Source: a virus (lineage: Duplodnaviria; Heunggongvirae; Uroviricota; Caudoviricetes). From it: a stretch of DNA of 44,295 bases. The translations under genes were made by a program, and so were the position numbers. The notes under the pieces were generated by a model. That model worked only from the letters and a program-made list of their open reading frames with translations, searched no databases and was not told the DNA's origin. Below, piece after piece: positions 3,054-32,969 of the stretch (the stretch's first letter is position 1; every line of letters starts with the position of its first letter). The stretch lies in the IMG/VR virus record IMGVR_UViG_2734482556_000013; one strand, given 5' to 3'.

Positions 3054-3602
3054 TCAGCGACCAATCACCACAACCTGACCACCGTCCCCTTCGTCTGCCG
3101 TGCTGATCTCCTGAGATACCACACGTGACCCCACGCGCATTTCACCATACAGAACAGGCATAACATTGCCCTGGGCAACCATGTTATCCAGTGAGGAGAA
3201 ATAGGTGTTCTGCTTACCGTTATCCGTTGTCTGTGTGCGGGGAGTTCTGGCTTTCGGTGCCAGCATCTGAGCCACACCGCCGAGCACCATACTGGCACCG
3301 AGAGAAAACAGAATGCCGGTCATACCACCGGCACCAATGGCAGCCCCCCATGCTGCAAGGGTGGCTCCGGCGGTAAAGAATGATCCGGCAATGGCGGCTG
3401 CTCCCAGGACAATCTGGAATACACCACCTGACTTGGCCCCGGCGACTCTGGGAACAATATGAATCACAGCGCCGTCAGGCAGAGCCTCATGTAACTGTGC
3501 CGTTAATCCGGACGTGCTAACATCCTGCCCGGCAATACGCACCTGATACCAGCCGTCGCTCAGCTTCTGACGAAACGCAGGGAGCTGTGTGGCCATCGCC
3601 CG
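3054..3602 (-). CDS. Tail assembly protein I-like, second divergent copy (N-terminus lost in gap)
   Basis: Translation ...TQLPAFRQKLSDGWYQVRIAG...GEMRVGSRVVSQEISTADEGDGGQVVVIGR matches gpI from about residue 45 to the end; frame is open up to the gap edge. Confidence 0.6.
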   Translation of the reverse strand, partial: RAMATQLPAFRQKLSDGWYQVRIAGQDVSTSGLTAQLHEALPDGAVIHIVPRVAGAKSGGVFQIVLGAAAIAGSFFTAGATLAAWGAAIGAGGMTGILFSLGASMVLGGVAQMLAPKARTPRTQTTDNGKQNTYFSSLDNMVAQGNVMPVLYGEMRVGSRVVSQEISTADEGDGGQVVVIGR

Positions 3603-3852
3603 NNNNNNNNNNNNNNNNNNNNNNNNNNNNNNNNNNNNNNNNNNNNNNNNNNNNNNNNNNNNNNNNNNNNNNNNNNNNNNNNNNNNNNNNNNNNNNNNNN
3701 NNNNNNNNNNNNNNNNNNNNNNNNNNNNNNNNNNNNNNNNNNNNNNNNNNNNNNNNNNNNNNNNNNNNNNNNNNNNNNNNNNNNNNNNNNNNNNNNNNNN
3801 NNNNNNNNNNNNNNNNNNNNNNNNNNNNNNNNNNNNNNNNNNNNNNNNNNNN
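3603..3852. other. Assembly gap (run of N) between two gpI-like sequences
   Basis: 250 consecutive n characters. Confidence 1.
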
Positions 3853-4438
3853 AAACCACACGTGACCCCACGCGCATTTCCCCGTACAGAACAGGCAGAA
3901 CATTACCCTGGGCAACCATGTTATCCAGTGACGAGAAATACGTGTTCTGTTTGCCGTTATCTGTACTGGCTGCCGTGGGCGTCCTGGCTTTCGGTGCCAG
4001 CATCTGCGCCACACCACCCAGGATCATACTGGCCCCTGCTGCATACATACCCGATACAGCCGCGGCCCCCAGCCAGCCCACAGGGTTCCACCATGCCACC
4101 GCAATCAGCGCCGCACCCAGCACCGCCTGAAACACACCGCCACTTTTGGCACCCGCCAGACGCGGAACGATGTGGATCACGGCACCATTTGCCAGCGGTT
4201 CATTAAGACGGGCAGATAATTCATTTTCGCCTGCATCACGCCCGGCAATGCGCACCTGATACCAGCCGTCGCTCAGTTTCTGACGAAATGCCGGGAGCTG
4301 TGTGGCCAGTGCCCGGATGGCTTCGGCCCCCGTTTTCACACGAAGGTCGATGCGGCGGCCAAATCGCTGCAAATCCCCGTAAAGGCAGATGCGTGCCATG
4401 CCCGGTGACGCCAGAGGGAGTGTGTGCGTCGCTGCCAT
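3853..4438 (-). CDS. I: Tail assembly protein I (C-terminus lost in gap)
   Basis: Starts MAATHTLPLASPGMARICLYGDLQRFGRRIDLRVKTGAEAIRALATQLPAFRQKLSDGWYQVRIAG..., lambda gpI-like; runs into the N-gap. Confidence 0.7.
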
Positions 4439-21983: not shown

Positions 21984-22120
21984 ACAGCCTTGCTTTATGA
22001 ATAAAACGCACCCCAGCAGCCAGTGCTACTGGGGGCGGAGGTGTTGCTGGTAAAGTTAGGTATTGGATCAATGAGTGAGTCAACATAATATTAAACTCAC
22101 AATTATAAATCAGCCATATA

Positions 22121-23578
22121 TTAGGAGCGCCAAAAAAAACCTGAAAACAATATAATAACAGGATAAATTTCAAGGCGACCAAGAATCATAGCTATGCACA
22201 TTAAATATTTTGCAATGTCATTAAGCACTCCGAATGACGATGCAGTAGCCCCAAAACCTAATCCCATATTATTAATACATGCAGCCACTGTTGCAAATGA
22301 TGTAAGAAAATCATATCCCATACCATTTAACACCAGTATAAAAAACACCGTGAAGAGAGTATAAAGAAAAAAGAAACTCCATACAGACCTCATTACACGA
22401 TCTGTAACTATCTTCCCTCCTACATTTACACTCAACAACGCTCTGGGATGAGAAAGCTGATTTATCTCGTGTTTGCTTTGTTTGAAAAGTATAAGAAATC
22501 GAAGTGACTTAATTCCACCACAGGTTGAACCTATACATCCCCCAAAGAAACTTGACAACAGCAAAAACACTATCGTGTGCGTGGGCCAGTTTGCATAATC
22601 CTGCGTAGCTAAACCATTATCAGTGAGCATGGAGCTGGCAAGAAAAAACGAATGAATAAAACTTCCATGCAAGTCATACATACCTATATGCCAGACCTGG
22701 AAAGAGGTAACAATGATCACCCCTAAGGCTATTAACAGAAAGAAACGAAGTTCAATATCTCTGATTAAAGGTTTTATCGTTTTTCTGCTAATAACAATAT
22801 ACCAAAGAGTGAAGTTGAAAGCCGATAGCAGGGAAAAAGAACCAGCCACCAGCTCAACCAAATAGTTATTAAAATATCCGATACTCTCGCTATGAGTTGA
22901 GAAACCACCAAGCGAAACTGTGGAAATCCCGTGACAAATAGCATCAAACAAAGGCATTCCTGCAAGTCTATAACAGACAATACAAGCAATACCTAATAAA
23001 GAATAAGTTATCCACAGTGTCCGTGACGTATCGGCCAGGCGGGGAGTGAGTTTGTCATCCTTAAATGGCCCCGGCATTTCTGACTGATAAAGCTTTGCAC
23101 CACCAATACCCAATAATGGCAATACTGCAACCGCCAGAACAATAACTCCTAAACCACCTATAAAATTTAACTGTGACCGATAGTACAAATATGCCCGAGG
23201 TAATGAACTAACATCATCAATTACAGTTGCTCCTGTTGTTGTTATTCCAGAAACCCCTTCAAACAGAGCATCAATGAACGTTAAATTAAGTTCTGAGTCA
23301 ATCCATAAAGGGAATGCACTAATAACAGAAAACAAAATCCAAAACATTACAATTATAATAAACCCATCACGGGTACGTAATTGAATGCCAGATTTCTTAG
23401 TTGTATACCACGCTCCGCCACCAATGCAAAAAAATATAACGAAAGTTATAAAGAAAACGAACAGGCTTTTTTCTTTATAAAACAATGCTACAACCATTGG
23501 TGGCAACATTGAAAGACTATAGAGCCAAACCAGGAACCCACACATATGAGTAACAACTCTTACATGAGATGTATTCAT
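22121..23578 (-). CDS. trkG: TrkH-family potassium uptake protein TrkG
   Basis: Polytopic membrane protein starting MNTSHVRVVTHMCGFLVWLYSL... (ATG 23576-23578), matching K-12 Rac-encoded TrkG; visibly AT-rich gene. Confidence 0.9.
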   Translation of the reverse strand: MNTSHVRVVTHMCGFLVWLYSLSMLPPMVVALFYKEKSLFVFFITFVIFFCIGGGAWYTTKKSGIQLRTRDGFIIIVMFWILFSVISAFPLWIDSELNLTFIDALFEGVSGITTTGATVIDDVSSLPRAYLYYRSQLNFIGGLGVIVLAVAVLPLLGIGGAKLYQSEMPGPFKDDKLTPRLADTSRTLWITYSLLGIACIVCYRLAGMPLFDAICHGISTVSLGGFSTHSESIGYFNNYLVELVAGSFSLLSAFNFTLWYIVISRKTIKPLIRDIELRFFLLIALGVIIVTSFQVWHIGMYDLHGSFIHSFFLASSMLTDNGLATQDYANWPTHTIVFLLLSSFFGGCIGSTCGGIKSLRFLILFKQSKHEINQLSHPRALLSVNVGGKIVTDRVMRSVWSFFFLYTLFTVFFILVLNGMGYDFLTSFATVAACINNMGLGFGATASSFGVLNDIAKYLMCIAMILGRLEIYPVIILFSGFFWRS

Positions 23579-25535: not shown

Positions 25536-25685
25536 TTCTTGCTCCTCAATCCATTAAAATCTCAGCAATAGTAGTTGTTACGTCCGCCACTGGCTCAGAG
25601 CTGACTATCCGCTAAATTTAGCTCAGTGCCGTAGCTGTGTCAGAACAAACCTAAGCCGAAACCGTTTATTACAAAACAATAAATA

Positions 25686-28587: not shown

Positions 28588-28867
28588 TTCTCAATCTCTC
28601 GATGGCGCAGCGCAGCAGATGCCAGTTGTTCAGGCTGACGAATAAAGTATAAATAAACTGGCTATGGTGTAAAGCCCCACATAGCATGAACAAACACTAC
28701 ATATCAAATAGCTGGTACAAGGATAGAAATACGACACTTATTATTAAAAACGATTAGATAAATTACATTTTAATGTTATGCAAAAGTTCTTTTTTATCAT
28801 AACATTTCAATAAAAGCATTACAGATGCAATCATCCCGTCATCATCAATTATTTAAGGTGGTTAAAC

Positions 28868-28954
28868 ATGGAAAATAACAAGTTCGCACATCTCGCTCCT
28901 TTTTTATCCGTAATCCTTTTCGCTTGTTGTTTTATATGGGCATTATTTTTATAA
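28868..28954 (+). CDS. Candidate small hydrophobic peptide (28 aa)
   Basis: AAGGTGG Shine-Dalgarno 6 nt upstream of ATG 28868; translation MENNKFAHLAPFLSVILFACCFIWALFL; in AT-rich DNA, so chance ORF not excluded. Confidence 0.3.
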   Translation: MENNKFAHLAPFLSVILFACCFIWALFL

Positions 28955-29361
28955 AGTAGCCACATGATAAGTTGCTGGAATCATATTTCCCACTCAAGTC
29001 ATTAACATTTGATAAGATATATCTAAAAGGACGCCTTTACATTATTTATGCGTATATAATTTATTTATATACACAGTAAAGGTATCCTGGGAAAATATTT
29101 ATCGTTAAAAAATACATCATAAATAATTAAGCTGAAATTTCAGAACACAACTAATACACACAATAAGGTTCAGTAACAGTAATCTATGTGGACTACATCG
29201 AGATTTTTTGATTAAACTTTAATAACTTATTCCTAACACACAGAATGCATAAACTAAAAGTAAAACAAATAGTTATACGAAAAACAACCATATTTATTCT
29301 ATCTTCTCCTCTAATCAACATATCAATTATGTGTTTCATAACAGCTTGACATAACCCTCCA

Positions 29362-29386
29362 AAAGATGCATTTTTAATGCATGTTT
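29362..29386 (+). promoter_or_regulatory. Paired ATGCAT half-sites (NsrR-box-like) with an upstream TTGACA, preceding the yeaR-like gene
   Basis: AAGATGCATTTTTAATGCATGTTTT lies just before the Shine-Dalgarno; TTGACA at 29346-29351. Confidence 0.4.
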
Positions 29387-29400
29387 TGGAGGAGGTGGTT

Positions 29401-29739
29401 ATGACACACAAGAGAATTCCTAAAGATTGGGTAATCAAACGCTCAACTCCGTTCTTCACAAAAGAGAACGTACCTTCAGCGTTATTAACACATCATAATA
29501 CAGCAGCAGGTGTTTTTGGGCAGTTGTGCGTAATGGAAGGCACTGTAACATATTATGGTTTTACTGATGAGAATGCTACTGAACCGGAGATAAAAGTAGT
29601 CATTAATGCTGGCGCTTTTGCAACAAGCCCACCACAATACTGGCACCGTGTTGAACTAAGCGATGATGCTCAGTTTAATATTAACTTTTGGGTCGCTCCA
29701 GACTTTTCGGGCGAAAAAGTCTATAGCACCAAAAAATAG
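29401..29739 (+). CDS. YeaR-like protein (DUF1971 family)
   Basis: GGAGGAGGTGG Shine-Dalgarno before ATG 29401; translation MTHKRIPKDWVIKRSTPFFTKENVPSALL...YWHRVELSDDAQFNINFWVAPD resembles E. coli YeaR. Confidence 0.75.
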   Translation: MTHKRIPKDWVIKRSTPFFTKENVPSALLTHHNTAAGVFGQLCVMEGTVTYYGFTDENATEPEIKVVINAGAFATSPPQYWHRVELSDDAQFNINFWVAPDFSGEKVYSTKK

Positions 29740-29768
29740 ATGATCATATTAAAAATGCTTTAACAGTC

Positions 29769-29806
29769 AGACCCGGCAGGGCTATCCCCGACGGGTCTCA
29801 TTTTTG
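29769..29806 (+). terminator. Intrinsic terminator of the yeaR-like gene
   Basis: AGACCCG ... CGGGTCT stem followed by CATTTTTG, about 30 nt after the stop codon. Confidence 0.55.
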
Positions 29807-30359
29807 TAAATATATTGGTTCTACATTGACAGGAGACTTCAACCATAAGAAGTAATCTGAATACTTGAGCAATAAATTTACTTAAGATTAATGAGCGCAC
29901 CTTGCCGGACAAAGATAAACCAAGGTAACACCTTTTTTCTAGCCAGTATGTAATCAATCAGAAAGCCGCTCCATAAGAACAACAGCAAGACAATAAATTG
30001 CCATTACAGCCGCAATAGCCAGCGCACATTTGAGAACCAGCACGACAACCCCCTGTATTAGACGCACACCAGTCCTGATAAATATGAGGCTGTCTCGTCA
30101 GTGATTCAATACAACTATTGGGTATAGTTTCTGTGATTTTATTCTGTAGAAATGGAACACAACAACCAGTCACCACCAGCACTTCCTTAAATGCTCTAAG
30201 TCAGAAACAAGCCAACATTTTAGTCCGCTTTGAGCGATCTGCAGACATTGCTAGCAGCCTTCTGTGTGAATTCTCAGGGAGCAGGTCGGCATAGCATCAC
30301 GTTGAGGCTCTTACCCTACTTGTTCACACCAACCCTAACTCCACAGACTGATTCATAAA

Positions 30360-31361
30360 TTAGTAATCTGCGTGTTTCGCACTTTTCAGAAATGCTTTCA
30401 TATTTTCATTAGGTCGCTCAATTTCGAAGTTACTTCCATATAACTCTTGTAATTTTGGCCATAACTTACTTAATAACCCTCTCCTGCGATAAAATGGATG
30501 TATCCAAACGGTAGATAGGTACGGAGAATTTGCATTTGAATTGTTTATTGTGACCAGCCCAACTAAACATTGTCGATAACCACTATTATCCATTGATTGT
30601 ATTTCTTCGACGAATGGATACGCGATTACATCAGTCCAACCATGATCGGTTGTATCCCATTGCATTCCGTCATGACATTCCTTCGACTGATAGCGGCGTA
30701 AAGCTACACACGCGAGCTTTTGCCAATCTGGAGAATTAATTGTGATCTCTTCATCGTATGACGCGCCTATTGGAGCGGGTATTGGTCTGATTAATCCAGC
30801 ATGGCATTCATCATAGAACTTCATGTTTCCCTCAGAAACGTTGTGTACGTTGGGTTGCTCCATGTGTGCGCCATTCAAAAATAGCTCTGATAGTAGTGTA
30901 TCTACACTGTAATCTTTATTGATTATTGTCGGCTTAGAGTTTTTCTTATTAAGGCCGCGAGTAACGATTTTTTGATCAATGTTAACAACATGGAATAATC
31001 CGTCGGGGAGGCTAGCGAACCACGATGGGGCATCGGACCAGAATAGCATGCCTTTTGTACTTCTTAAGAGTTTAATTAAGTTAATACAAGCTTCTTCACT
31101 AGTCTTGCCGTTGATGCGAAGTATGTTAGGACTAAAGTAATATTCATCCATATCAGGGAATGCAGCTTCGCAAAACTCCTGTACATAATTTAGCACCTGG
31201 ATTCTACAGAGATCATCATAGCTGGTAATAACTAAGGGGGTATCTTCATTACTATTATGATTATCAATAATGCAATCTATAGCGAGACTTACTGCTTTGC
31301 GTATCACTTCAGTTGAATCTAACGACTCTAAAAATTTTGTCTTTCGTGTGCGAATATCCAT
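30360..31361 (-). CDS. Hypothetical protein with C-terminal GNAT-like acetyltransferase motif (cassette gene B)
   Basis: 333 aa; C-terminal ...YRQCLVGLVTINNSNANSPYLSTVWIHPFYRRRGLLSKLWPKL resembles GNAT motif A; ATG lies 16 nt after the stop of gene A; AT-rich. Confidence 0.7.
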   Translation of the reverse strand: MDIRTRKTKFLESLDSTEVIRKAVSLAIDCIIDNHNSNEDTPLVITSYDDLCRIQVLNYVQEFCEAAFPDMDEYYFSPNILRINGKTSEEACINLIKLLRSTKGMLFWSDAPSWFASLPDGLFHVVNIDQKIVTRGLNKKNSKPTIINKDYSVDTLLSELFLNGAHMEQPNVHNVSEGNMKFYDECHAGLIRPIPAPIGASYDEEITINSPDWQKLACVALRRYQSKECHDGMQWDTTDHGWTDVIAYPFVEEIQSMDNSGYRQCLVGLVTINNSNANSPYLSTVWIHPFYRRRGLLSKLWPKLQELYGSNFEIERPNENMKAFLKSAKHADY

Positions 31362-31376
31362 GTATGACCTGCGCTA

Positions 31377-32399
31377 TTAAAATTCATGAATGAACGGTTT
31401 GTCATCTGGTTGCAAAATGGTGGTTTTATTCGTTGCTACATTTAAACTGTTGTAGAGCATAATTGCCAGGTTCGATGCATTTTCAATCAGCGTTTCAAGA
31501 TCCTGGTCTGTAATCACTACGAGGTTCCCTTCTTTATCCTTTCCACCACGATGCACTAAGTGATTTCGATTGAGGGTTGCCAATTCAATAGCTTCTATCG
31601 GACAGTCTTTTTGTACTTTTATATCGAATGTAGCTTCATAGCGGTCGATTACCTTTTTAGTGCTATGCCAGCTTGCACTGATCAAGTGTTCCTTGATTGA
31701 CCTGATTAGCTCTCCCCTAATTTTCTCGATGGGTTCACCCTTGAAAGGCAACGCAGCAATATCTTTGCTTACTTTAAATTCAGTCTTACCTTTTTCTATA
31801 CAATTGGCTATGTAGACATCATCTTTCTCTATAGAATTAATGAATAGCTCAACATAAAGCGTTTCCAAAGCTGTAATAACATTCGTGTAGAGCAAACTAA
31901 GCAAGTGGTTTTTTTGCTGTTGTTCAGTTTTATCTTTTGCAAGTTTTTTTATTTTATCGATATTATCAATGAATTTTAAATACGGATTACCGGAAGACGT
32001 TACAGCGTCGTAGATATCATCATCGTACCAATCATCTATATTATTTGAGTTTCCAGACCAGTCAAAACATTGTGTTTGTAATTCATCTACTAATTCCTCA
32101 ATATACTCAGATTTAACATATTGACCGAAGATGGATTGTAGTTCTTCGCTCGCATCATACGGCCCGCCATATATGTAAGCATAGCCACCTTCTCTACTTT
32201 CATACGGACAAGCATTTGCCGGATCTTCAAAGTTTTCAAAGAACCAGTTTTTCATTACTTCGAGTTGATCTTTTTTGCTTATGTATTTTAAAGATTTTAG
32301 TGGAACTTTCTTTCCATTAACCTCGAAAACAATTTTCACGATGTAACGCTCCCTTGTATCAATTGCGCAACTATTATACCACAGCGAAATACAGGGCAT
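31377..32399 (-). CDS. Hypothetical protein with C-terminal Rx4H (HEPN-like) motif (cassette gene A)
   Basis: Preferred start ATG 32397-32399 (MPCISLWYNS...) preceded by TAAGGAGG; 340 aa; motif RNHLVH at 31551-31568; AT-rich; ORF track extends to 32468. Confidence 0.7.
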   Translation of the reverse strand: MPCISLWYNSCAIDTRERYIVKIVFEVNGKKVPLKSLKYISKKDQLEVMKNWFFENFEDPANACPYESREGGYAYIYGGPYDASEELQSIFGQYVKSEYIEELVDELQTQCFDWSGNSNNIDDWYDDDIYDAVTSSGNPYLKFIDNIDKIKKLAKDKTEQQQKNHLLSLLYTNVITALETLYVELFINSIEKDDVYIANCIEKGKTEFKVSKDIAALPFKGEPIEKIRGELIRSIKEHLISASWHSTKKVIDRYEATFDIKVQKDCPIEAIELATLNRNHLVHRGGKDKEGNLVVITDQDLETLIENASNLAIMLYNSLNVATNKTTILQPDDKPFIHEF

Positions 32400-32537
32400 A
32401 ACCTGCCTCCTTAAACTAACATACCATGAGCCAGCAATGTCCGCTATTGGCACAAAGCGGACAACCACGCTAGCTCTCCCCTGTGCCAGAAAAATGTCAA
32501 TTTACATATGAACTAATGCTCTTTGATCTAGTAACGT

Positions 32538-32954
32538 CTATAAATACCGAAGATTTCCTTGATAAAATGCCAGTACACGTTTCATAACTTCACTCTTCCG
32601 GCACTCGCGACAGATTATGTTCTGACGCCTGTCATAGCGGCGTATTTCTCCGTCTGGTAATGACCAGATAAGGTCAGGATCAACCACAACCGTTTTTTTC
32701 ACCTTTGCCCTGGATAGTTTTTTGCGGGCGTTTTTCCAATCCTTACGAGCCTGTTCAGACGGGAATAACCCATAGCCAGAGTTGTATACATCGCCACTGG
32801 CAACCAACTCTCTGGCAAGAATGCTCATCAGATATCTTGTCGCACCTGTCTTGGCCTCCAGTTGCCTTAACGTCTCGCGCCCACTCTGGCGTACCAACTC
32901 AACAACCTGCTCCTTAATTTTTTCACGCTCTTCCTGTGTAAAAACTTTTGCCAT
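32538..32954 (-). CDS. Hypothetical nin-region protein
   Basis: ATG at 32952-32954 preceded by GGAGG; translation MAKVFTQEEREKIKEQVVELVRQSGRETLRQ... with a small Cys cluster (ICRECRKS). Confidence 0.55.
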   Translation of the reverse strand: MAKVFTQEEREKIKEQVVELVRQSGRETLRQLEAKTGATRYLMSILARELVASGDVYNSGYGLFPSEQARKDWKNARKKLSRAKVKKTVVVDPDLIWSLPDGEIRRYDRRQNIICRECRKSEVMKRVLAFYQGNLRYL

Positions 32955-32969
32955 AAGCGCCTCCGGCAA

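What the first reader, a model, noticed from the sequence alone, without database searches (positions are those of the whole stretch)
30360..32399. Tightly coupled two-gene operon (HEPN-like Rx4H protein plus GNAT-like protein) in an AT-rich island: candidate novel anti-phage or toxin module
Two minus-strand genes are separated by only 16 nt (stop of A, then ATG of B). Gene A (340 aa, strong TAAGGAGG ribosome site) carries a C-terminal RNHLVH motif, the Rx4-6H signature of HEPN RNases common in abortive-infection and toxin proteins. Gene B (333 aa) ends in a GNAT-like motif A (VWIHPFYRRRGLLSKLW) after a roughly 230-aa N-terminal region I cannot place. Both sit in visibly AT-rich DNA inserted in the nin region between the replication genes and Q, a classic moron and defense hotspot. 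I do not recognise a described defense system with this HEPN plus GNAT pairing.
Basis: partly seen in the sequence, partly recalled or inferred. Interest (0 to 1): 0.8.

Follow-up and report, generated by a model that had tools for sequence, protein, structure and literature searches.

The report
Mobile HEPN RNase plus acetyltransferase cassette
Two co-transcribed prophage genes, a predicted RNA-cutting HEPN enzyme and an unusual acetyltransferase, form a small mobile cassette of the kind that elsewhere carries proven anti-phage systems, so it is a credible but untested immunity module whose two genes can also exist apart.

Summary
Gene A has a HEPN fold and an invariant Rx4H motif. Gene B has a GNAT fold at its C-terminus. 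Both lie in AT-rich DNA in the nin-like region of a Rac-type prophage. Two corrections: the spacer is 15 nt, and comparative data favour a GTG start at 32339, giving 320 aa rather than 340.

A combines the HEPN/RES N-terminal domain 1 with a RiboL-PSP-type HEPN domain. This makes it the HEPN counterpart of aRES, a stand-alone anti-phage protein reported in 2026. B is a rare protein with an orphan N-domain and a GNAT domain that most resembles protein lysine acetyltransferases.

The pair co-diverges and occurs together in 209 of 5426 complete E. coli genomes. It moves as a 2.24-kb unit (window 30223-32462) bounded by hairpin-containing inverted repeats that I call T1 and T2. The same repeats bound cassettes carrying 3HP, DRT-UG17/SLATT and PD-T7-1 homologues (PADLOC profile matches) and SMODS/SLATT genes, sometimes at the same prophage site.

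The two genes are separable. Relatives of A at 76% identity or less are solo, and B survives and spreads after clean deletion of A.

Verdict: a probable defence cassette and a new variant of a known kind. An obligatory toxin-antitoxin relationship is unlikely. Any functional link between A and B is unproven.

The parts
30223..32462 (-). Whole mobile cassette: T1 repeat, leader, gene A, gene B, conserved 3' untranslated region, T2 repeat
   Evidence: Homology to more than 10 loci with unrelated flanks starts and stops at these positions. The ends are 26/33-identical inverted repeats, read directly.
32439..32462 (.). T1 end repeat, GTCCGC-N12(GTGCCA)-GCGGAC hairpin; the conserved part continues inward as ATTGCT
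   Evidence: Exact palindrome match. Forms a hairpin of -10.5 kcal/mol, z -2.5. The same motif starts cassettes with other cargo.
32340..32438 (-). Leader: extended -10 TGGTATAAT (32381-32373) and AAGGGAG ribosome site (32355-32349); also holds the non-conserved ATG 32399 with its AAGGAGG site
   Evidence: Read. The leader is kept in B-only derivatives. The promoter is inferred from consensus only; the scan tool did not list it.
31377..32339 (-). Gene A, 320 aa from GTG: HEPN/RES N-terminal domain 1 plus HEPN RNase domain
32040..32339 (-). A residues about 1-100: HEPN/RES-NTD1 (PF18870-like), with invariant P45 and G58-G59-P60
   Evidence: Pfam 22 bits, E 2e-4, below the gathering score of 27.4. 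36 of 54 family members hit it. 43-51% identical to the same domain in proteins that pass the threshold.
31416..31985 (-). A residues about 119-308: HEPN domain
31551..31568 (-). Rx4H catalytic signature RNHLVH (R258..H263), followed by invariant R264
   Evidence: Invariant in 54 sequences down to 26% identity.
30360..31361 (-). Gene B, 333 aa: orphan N-domain plus C-terminal GNAT domain
30852..31361 (-). B residues about 1-170: alpha/beta domain with no recognisable family (invariant D29, C30, N34, R135, N138)
   Evidence: No Pfam, PDB-sequence or PADLOC match. Only 23 clusters among 1.84 billion representatives; the full-length hits are all about 330-345 aa.
30363..30851 (-). B residues about 171-333: GNAT fold, with motif A at 30459-30509
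30223..30359 (-). Conserved 3' non-coding region ending in the T2 repeat (core 30223-30246; about 70 nt conserved among cassettes with different cargo)
   Evidence: No Rfam match.

Best explanation
The locus is a 2.24-kb mobile cassette of the kind that carries anti-phage systems, inserted in a variable spot of a Rac-type prophage. Gene A is a HEPN ribonuclease with the same N-terminal domain as the stand-alone defence protein aRES, but with HEPN in place of RES. I infer that A is held inactive until infection and then cuts RNA, stopping growth of the infected cell (abortive infection). Gene B is transcribed from the same leader. It is a two-domain acetyltransferase that resembles protein lysine acetyltransferases. 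B has a function that does not require A, either as a second effector or as an accessory that tunes the response. It is not an antitoxin that A needs. Shown here: the folds, the motifs, co-inheritance, separability of the two genes, and the cassette vehicle with its other cargo. Inferred: RNase activity, acetyl transfer, phage triggering, and any defence phenotype.
For: A's HEPN fold and invariant Rx4H motif. Pfam RiboL-PSP-HEPN and NTD1 hits in homologues. aRES is NTD1 plus RES, is stand-alone, and protects E. coli with growth arrest. A's wider family has no conserved neighbour. Its 56-76% identical relatives sit alone in prophage or satellite-like variable regions, next to what look from their sequences like P2-type portal/terminase genes or an integrase; these neighbours were not profile-searched. 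The cassette ends T1 and T2 also bound 3HP, DRT RT_UG17+SLATT and PD-T7-1 homologues and an HNH protein that matches PADLOC's type IV restriction model. The same DUF977-hokD site holds genes annotated as AbiH, SMODS+SLATT, FRG and DUF5677 in other strains. In other loci the A-B cassette lies next to Gabija-like genes (by Pfam) and dynamin-family genes (by Pfam), and beside genes that read as dGTPase and Dam. B's GNAT fold. B-only derivatives keep the leader after internal deletion of A, arose at two or more junctions, and occur in at least three contexts as intact genes. Distant B homologues lack A.
Against: No experiment bears on this cassette. Neither protein matches any PADLOC v2 model. This protein's own Pfam scores fall just below the curated cut-offs. 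The pair is tightly linked: 15-nt spacer, one leader, 209/209 co-occurrence in E. coli, and monotonic co-divergence. That linkage would fit a true two-protein system equally well. Location in a hotspot is association, not proof. B's motif A glycine is not invariant.
Confidence: 0.5

Rival explanations
1. A and B form one obligatory two-protein immune system. The acetyltransferase gates or directs the HEPN RNase, for example by acetylating A, a host target or a phage protein, and neither works properly alone in this lineage.
For: Single leader, 15-nt spacer, and no internal T2-T1 junction. 209/209 co-occurrence in E. coli. Strict co-divergence, from A 99.7/B 100 down to A 83.8/B 77.8%. The pair moves as a unit into more than 10 contexts. 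Paired A proteins form a separate clade at 84% identity or more; they are 320 aa, whereas the solo relatives are mostly 304-314 aa. Other cassettes of this type hold one multi-gene system each, such as 3HP and DRT+SLATT.
Against: B stays intact and spreads after A is deleted. A's relatives, and aRES, work or persist as single genes. B's distant homologues have no A and no conserved partner. I could not run a complex prediction.
Confidence: 0.25
2. This is a toxin-antitoxin or addiction module. A is a HEPN toxin that B neutralises enzymatically, analogous to AMPylation of HepT by MntA. Its main role is to stabilise the cassette or the prophage.
Against: Solo A homologues at 56-76% identity, and across many phyla, lack any partner. 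B is a large two-domain enzyme with no DNA-binding domain, and it spreads on its own. There is no MNT or RHH partner.
Confidence: 0.1
3. The cargo is not host immunity. It is a phage-benefit moron: for example, B acts as an anti-defence or host-modifying acetyltransferase and A as an RNA-processing or host-shutoff nuclease used by the prophage itself.
For: The location is a prophage moron region. From my own knowledge, GNAT proteins can be anti-CRISPRs (AcrVA5). B's nearest folds are protein acetyltransferases.
Against: The cassette also sits in non-prophage chromosomal islands. Its vehicle carries homologues of known defence systems. A's family has the architecture of conflict-system effectors.
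Confidence: 0.1

Closest known systems
aRES (antiphage RES-domain protein; Osterman et al., bioRxiv 10.64898/2026.01.28.702374)
   Same: It has the same N-terminal domain, PF18870 HEPN/RES-NTD1. It has a two-domain sensor-plus-effector layout. The wider families of both are stand-alone genes in defence islands of Enterobacteria. Protection comes with growth arrest.
   Different: The effector in aRES is RES, which converts NAD+ to ADPR-1P; here it is a HEPN RNase domain. Gene A in this lineage is co-transcribed with a GNAT gene. No phenotype is known for A.
HEPN/RES-NTD1 + HEPN architecture and the Ribo L-PSP-HEPN family (Anantharaman et al. 2013, PMC3710099)
   Same: The domain combination was catalogued computationally (example KPK_1764, Klebsiella). 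It has an active Rx4-6H motif and is distantly related to AbiD/AbiF.
   Different: That paper does not tie a GNAT partner, a cassette vehicle or any experiment to this architecture (its GNAT passages were not displayed). The paper and Pfam differ on the subfamily (MAE_18760/28990 versus RiboL-PSP).
Tha, the tail-activated HEPN system of S. aureus prophages (PMC11087260)
   Same: It is a prophage-encoded HEPN-domain defence that is activated by a component of the incoming phage.
   Different: The sequence family and host are unrelated. I took this only from the abstract listed. It has no acetyltransferase partner.
HepT/MntA (HEPN-MNT) toxin-antitoxin systems
   Different: The partner there is a nucleotidyltransferase, not a GNAT, and toxin and antitoxin are obligatorily paired. 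A is 320 aa with an extra N-domain and is mostly solo.
GNAT toxins TacT/AtaT/ItaT/KacT (my own knowledge)
   Same: GNAT enzymes of mobile two-gene modules that stop translation by acetylating aminoacyl-tRNA.
   Different: Those are single-domain proteins of about 170 aa paired with RHH antitoxins. B is 333 aa with an orphan N-domain, has no RHH partner, and its closest folds are protein lysine acetyltransferases.
Integron gene cassettes, and MITE-like or TIR-bounded non-autonomous elements (as a comparison for the vehicle)
   Same: Promoter-proximal cargo is bounded by imperfect palindromic repeats. Cassettes form tandem arrays. Cargo is swapped at one site. No transposase lies inside.
   Different: There are no RYYYAAC/GTTRRRY core sites and no adjacent integron integrase. 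The ends are inverted repeats of each other. I saw no target duplication. The mobilising enzyme is unknown.

Membership tests
HEPN superfamily (RiboL-PSP-HEPN, PF18735) | All-alpha four-helix HEPN fold | tested here: met
HEPN superfamily (RiboL-PSP-HEPN, PF18735) | Conserved Rx4-6H motif | tested here: met
   R258-N-H-L-V-H263 is invariant in 54 sequences.
HEPN superfamily (RiboL-PSP-HEPN, PF18735) | Profile match above Pfam's gathering score | tested here: inconclusive
   The window protein gives no PF18735 hit. 25 of 54 aligned homologues do, and P0101 scores 36.1 bits against a cut-off of 28.4.
HEPN superfamily (RiboL-PSP-HEPN, PF18735) | Metal-independent RNase activity | not testable with these tools
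   Needs biochemistry.
aRES-type stand-alone defence proteins | HEPN/RES N-terminal domain 1 (PF18870) | tested here: met
   22 bits, E 2e-4, below the gathering score of 27.4 for this protein. 36 of 54 family members hit it. The domain is 43-51% identical to the same region in proteins that pass the threshold.
aRES-type stand-alone defence proteins | RES NADase effector domain | tested here: not met
   The C-terminal domain is HEPN, not RES. A is therefore not an aRES, only its HEPN counterpart.
aRES-type stand-alone defence proteins | Acts as a single gene | tested here: inconclusive
   The wider family is solo. This clade is always followed by B.
GNAT acetyltransferases (PF00583) | GNAT fold | tested here: met
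GNAT acetyltransferases (PF00583) | Motif A, Q/R-x-x-G-x-G/A, for acetyl-CoA binding | tested here: inconclusive
   The sequence is R292-R-R-G295-L-L. R292 is invariant. G295 is replaced in a few homologues, and the last G/A is absent.
GNAT acetyltransferases (PF00583) | Profile match above the gathering score | tested here: inconclusive
   19.9 bits against a cut-off of 20.7 for this protein. P0164 scores 27 bits. 12 of 43 homologues hit at E of 1e-3 or better.
Toxin-antitoxin module (HEPN-MNT or GNAT-RHH type) | The toxin is always accompanied by its cognate antitoxin gene | tested here: not met
   A homologues are solo at 76% identity or less and across phyla. B is solo after A is deleted.
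Toxin-antitoxin module (HEPN-MNT or GNAT-RHH type) | An MNT nucleotidyltransferase or RHH DNA-binding partner | tested here: not met
   No such domain appears in either protein.
Catalogued defence systems (PADLOC-DB v2.0.0) | Significant match of either protein to a system model | tested here: not met
   Best E-value is 0.01 for A and there are no hits for B. DefenseFinder and later PADLOC models were not available.
Integron gene cassette (for the vehicle) | attC with RYYYAAC/GTTRRRY cores, and a nearby integron integrase | tested here: not met
   The end sequences read lack these cores. Homology breaks fall at the outer GTCCGC/GCGGAC. No integron integrase was seen in the arrays.

The most novel reading that the evidence does not exclude
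A and B are a genuinely new two-protein immune system in which a HAT1-like protein acetyltransferase and an aRES-like HEPN RNase cooperate. This would be acetylation-gated RNA cleavage, an acetyl analogue of HepT/MntA control. It travels on a previously undescribed family of hairpin- and inverted-repeat-bounded cassettes that shuttle whole defence systems between lambdoid prophages, P2/P4-like elements and chromosomal islands.
Probability: 0.2. Interest if true: 0.8.

Novelty: new variant of a known kind. Interest (0 to 1): 0.6.

Why it matters
If the cassette protects against phages, A would extend the aRES principle to RNA cleavage: one N-terminal sensor-like domain with interchangeable effectors (RES, HEPN, PIN). 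That gives a direct test of what the shared domain senses.

B would add an acetyltransferase with an orphan domain to the short list of acetylation-based conflict enzymes. It also has natural A-less variants that can serve as ready-made controls.

The repeat-bounded vehicle may matter more than the pair. It offers a sequence signature, T1 and T2, for finding unannotated defence cargo, and it may explain how systems are swapped at prophage hotspots. About 4% of complete E. coli genomes carry this cassette, including the type strain and ExPEC/APEC strains.

Tried and rejected
- **Catalogue searches.** PADLOC, NCBIfam and PHROGs gave no functional name. The PHROGs hits (17908, 16994) are of unknown function.
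- **Literature.** Searches by protein accession, HEPN+GNAT, Pfam accessions and hotspot terms found nothing on this pair or on the repeats.
- **B's N-domain.** No match in Pfam at E up to 10, in a PDB sequence profile search, or in a profile search of 1.84 billion proteins. The last found only the family itself.
- **Conserved partner for A.** I looked for a neighbour shared across 55 diverse loci and found none.
- **Conserved partner for distant B homologues.** None. One locus has an AAA_13 ATPase and others have unrelated genes.
- **Empty insertion site in E. coli.** None among 5426 genomes.
- **Non-coding ends.** No Rfam family matches them.
- **Consensus scans.** The promoter/terminator scan found no more sites than in shuffles. 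The extended -10 is my own reading of the sequence.
- **Integron attC model for the ends.** Rejected on core-site sequence.
- **340-aa start.** Rejected on comparative grounds.
- **Tandem-GNAT origin of B's N-domain.** Considered from the secondary-structure order and not pursued.
Full report

Yes. Two minus-strand ORFs fill the region. B is 30360..31361. A's stop ends at 31377 and B's ATG begins at 31361, so the spacer is 15 nt. GC is 0.37-0.42 across the pair, against about 0.50 in the replication genes to the right.

An E. coli record (NCTC10444) that is 99.9% identical to a 20-kb stretch of the window around the pair shows the setting is a Rac-type prophage. It carries recET, kilR, sieB, ydaT/U/V, DUF1627 and DUF977, then the pair, then a DUF1971 gene on the other strand, then DUF1367/DUF1364/DUF1133, the lysis genes and trkG. 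NCBI's pipeline annotates both genes as hypothetical proteins (WP_014639476.1 and WP_000354966.1).

**2. The start of gene A**

The 340-aa reading with the strong AAGGAGG site is open in this allele but is not the conserved start.

- All 54 aligned homologues begin at MK(I/V)VFxxNGKKVPL.
- PGAP starts the gene at GTG 32339, giving 320 aa.
- In diverged cassette copies the upstream extension is shortened (L099, L101) or has no room to be open (L090-L092, L102). L102 has an ATG exactly at the GTG position.
An AAGGGAG site lies 9 nt before the GTG.
- The consensus scan did not list this promoter, so it remains my own reading.

**3. Gene A**

R258, H263 and R264 of RNHLVHR are invariant down to 26% identity. 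So are E159 and W224-H225.

The window protein on its own gives only a sub-threshold hit to HEPN/RES N-terminal domain 1 (PF18870; 22 bits against a cut-off of 27.4). The family evidence is stronger:

- 36 of 54 family members hit PF18870.
- 25 of 54 hit RiboL-PSP-HEPN (PF18735), with a best E-value of 7e-11. P0101 scores 36 bits against a cut-off of 28.4.
- The N-domain is 43-51% identical to the same domain in proteins that pass Pfam's threshold. Some of those carry other effectors, such as a PIN_8 domain.

The architecture HEPN/RES-NTD1 plus HEPN was catalogued in 2013, with a Klebsiella example. Ribo L-PSP-HEPN was described there as active and distantly related to AbiD/AbiF (PMC3710099).

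A 2026 preprint shows that proteins with PF18870 plus a RES domain, named aRES, are stand-alone anti-phage proteins of E. coli, Klebsiella and Enterobacter. They deplete NAD+ and arrest growth. Gene A is the HEPN counterpart of that design. It is not an aRES, because the RES domain is absent.

**4. Gene B**

Foldseek puts HAT1 first, over 250-306 alignment columns, then MYST enzymes and ESCO1. The TM-scores are low at about 0.25, so the protein-lysine-acetyltransferase resemblance is a lead and not a finding.

PF00583 scores 19.9 bits against a cut-off of 20.7 for this protein, and 27 bits for homologue P0164. 12 of 43 homologues hit it. In motif A, R292 is invariant, G295 is usually kept, and the final G/A is missing.

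The first 170 or so residues are an alpha/beta domain with invariant D29, C30, N34, R135 and N138. This domain matches nothing in Pfam, in PDB sequences or in PADLOC. A profile search of 1.84 billion representative proteins found only 23 clusters. The full-length hits were all about 330-345 aa and matched from their N-terminus; the rest were fragments, plus one weak 998-aa hit. B is therefore a rare, self-contained family.

**5. Are the two genes a unit?**

Evidence for linkage:

- In complete E. coli genomes, A occurs in 209 and B in 209 of 5426, at 99% identity or more. A is truncated in four genomes.
- In metagenomic and viral contigs the pair recurs in Enterobacterales and Aeromonas.
- A and B co-diverge smoothly. 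Identities to the window proteins run A 99.7/B 100, 96.9/93.1, 91-92/84-88, 87.2/80.5 and 83.8/77.8%.

Evidence against obligatory coupling:

- Every A homologue at 76% identity or less is solo. This holds in all 17 loci examined: ten viral contigs and seven genome loci. Several lie beside genes that, from their sequences, look like P2-type portal/terminase genes or an integrase; I did not profile-search these neighbours.
- Across 55 loci from Acidobacteriota, Chloroflexota, cyanobacteria and other phyla, no neighbouring gene family is shared by more than three loci.
- B homologues at 56% identity or less, mostly marine, have no A and no common partner.
- B-only loci at 86% identity (L097, L144, L145) are internal deletions of the cassette. 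The leader is joined to the last 60 or so nt of A. There are two different junction sets, at cassette positions 334-338/1261-1263 and 295/1283.
- That B-only form (cluster P0129, 142 member sequences) is intact in at least three further contexts.

So A does not need B to be tolerated, and B does not need A to be kept.

**6. The vehicle**

Homology between the window and more than ten loci with unrelated flanks begins and ends at the same bases, window 32462 and 30223. The ends are 26/33-identical inverted repeats. Each contains the palindrome GTCCGC-N12-GCGGAC. Shuffled copies of the window give 0.025 classified motifs on average, against three observed.

There are two versions:

- **T1**, at the promoter end: GTCCGCnnnGTGCCAGnAGCGGACATTGCT.
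- **T2**, at the far end: about 70 conserved nt ending ...GCTGTTAGCAATGTCCGCnnnTCGCTCAnAGCGGAC.

A scan of viral contigs found the motif in 42 stretches, about half of them without A or B. In those, T1 and T2 bound other cargo and form tandem arrays with T2-(about 18 nt)-T1 junctions.

PADLOC profile matches identify the cargo as homologues of known systems:

- 3HP (Hp1-3), in L204.
- DRT RT_UG17 plus SLATT, in L208.
- PD-T7-1, in L206.
- An HNH protein that matches the type IV restriction-enzyme model, in L215.

L204 sits at the same place after DUF977, with the same outer flanks as the window. L208 sits between a yedK-like gene and umuC, the same site as the A-B cassette in L090/L092. I identified those flanking genes from their sequences.

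In other E. coli prophages, the DUF977-hokD interval holds other cargo immediately before a T2 repeat. T1 was also found in LF82, ETEC-2265, B1_2 and A19, but not in STEC308:

- An FRG-domain gene (LF82).
- A 269-aa unknown (ETEC-2265).
- SMODS plus SLATT (B1_2).
- AbiH plus an unknown (A19).
- A DUF5677 gene (STEC308).

No E. coli genome has the two outer flanks joined. Solo A homologues are not inside such cassettes.

I found no transposase inside, no target duplication, no integron core sites and no Rfam family. None of the papers I searched describes these repeats. How the cassettes move is unexplained.

**7. What it most likely does**

The best-supported reading is a defence-type cassette. 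Three lines point to A as a stand-alone abortive-infection effector that cuts RNA once triggered:

- Its fold and invariant catalytic motif.
- Its shared N-domain with aRES.
- The solo life of its relatives in variable regions of prophages and satellite-like elements.

B shares A's transcript but has a function of its own. It could be a second effector or a modulator. A target protein is more likely than a small molecule, but only weakly so.

The tight linkage keeps a true two-protein mechanism alive as the main rival. A classical toxin-antitoxin reading fits the order of decay, with A lost first, but it fails the test of obligatory pairing. A phage-benefit or anti-defence role for B cannot be excluded.

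**8. Novelty**

A is a new, untested member of a catalogued architecture whose RES sibling has just been validated. B is an orphan family. The pairing is not in PADLOC v2 or in the literature I could search.

I rate the pair as a new variant of a known kind.

Noticed in passing
window 30223-30246 and 32439-32462; also L204, L206, L208, L210, L214, L215, L222, L224, L246-L251, L254-L256: A family of cassette-end repeats. T1 is GTCCGC..GTGCCAG..GCGGACATTGCT. T2 is ..GCTGTTAGCAATGTCCGC..TCGCTCA.AGCGGAC. They bound unrelated cargo (3HP, DRT UG17+SLATT and PD-T7-1 homologues, an HNH type IV REase-like protein, SMODS+SLATT) and form tandem arrays. There is no internal transposase. The mechanism of movement is unknown, and I found no description in the papers searched.
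   Followed up: partly
window about 30223-32540 (between DUF977 at 32538-32969 and the right flank); L246-L248, L254-L256: The interval after the DUF977 gene of Rac/Qin-type prophages is a cargo-swapping hotspot. Different E. coli strains carry FRG, AbiH, DUF5677, SMODS/SLATT, 3HP or this HEPN+GNAT pair there. No empty site exists in 5426 genomes.
   Followed up: partly
L097 1422-2682, L144 5817-7075, L145 5878-7188, L249-L253: B-only derivatives of the cassette. The coding region of A is deleted cleanly, at two different junction sets. The leader and B are kept intact and have spread to several contexts (cluster P0129, 142 member sequences).
   Followed up: yes
L116 5881-9411 (TARA marine contig): A 46%-identical B homologue lies with a 754-aa AAA_13 ATPase between a T2 and a T1 repeat. 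The repeat family and the B family therefore both reach marine gammaproteobacteria.
   Followed up: partly
window 25582-25605: A third, diverged copy of the palindrome (GTCCGCCACTGGCTCAGAGCTGAC). From the matching position in L001, it lies in the tolA-like moron region between the antiterminator-like gene and the lysis genes.
   Followed up: no
window 28600-30220 (DUF1971 gene at 29377-29739, + strand): The most AT-rich stretch (GC 0.29 at 29001-29500) lies next to the cassette. It holds a DUF1971 gene on the opposite strand. In related prophages, hokD occupies this side instead.
   Followed up: no
window 32397-32412: A strong AAGGAGG-N6-ATG lies upstream of A's conserved start, inside the leader. 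It is open for 20 codons in this allele but is lost or shortened in diverged cassettes. Part of this stretch is shared with the T1-proximal leader of at least one other cassette (L210).
   Followed up: partly
L071, L077, L199, L200, P0117: HEPN/RES-NTD1 is also fused C-terminally to PIN_8 nucleases. In one ORF it accompanies an RNase E/G-like region. This suggests a shared module with interchangeable nuclease effectors.
   Followed up: partly
E. coli records NZ_CP084096.1, NZ_CP073936.1, NZ_CP012631.1: IS2 and ISSen4 lie within the matched 2.4-kb region in two strains, and IS1A lies within the gene B match in a third. In that third strain NCBI names one of the features under the match a GNAT family N-acetyltransferase.
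   Followed up: no
window 3501-4000, 501-1500 and 22001-23500: Other low-GC islands in the window (GC 0.29, 0.39-0.40 and 0.37-0.39). By alignment with L203, the last corresponds to trkG. The first two were not examined.
   Followed up: no
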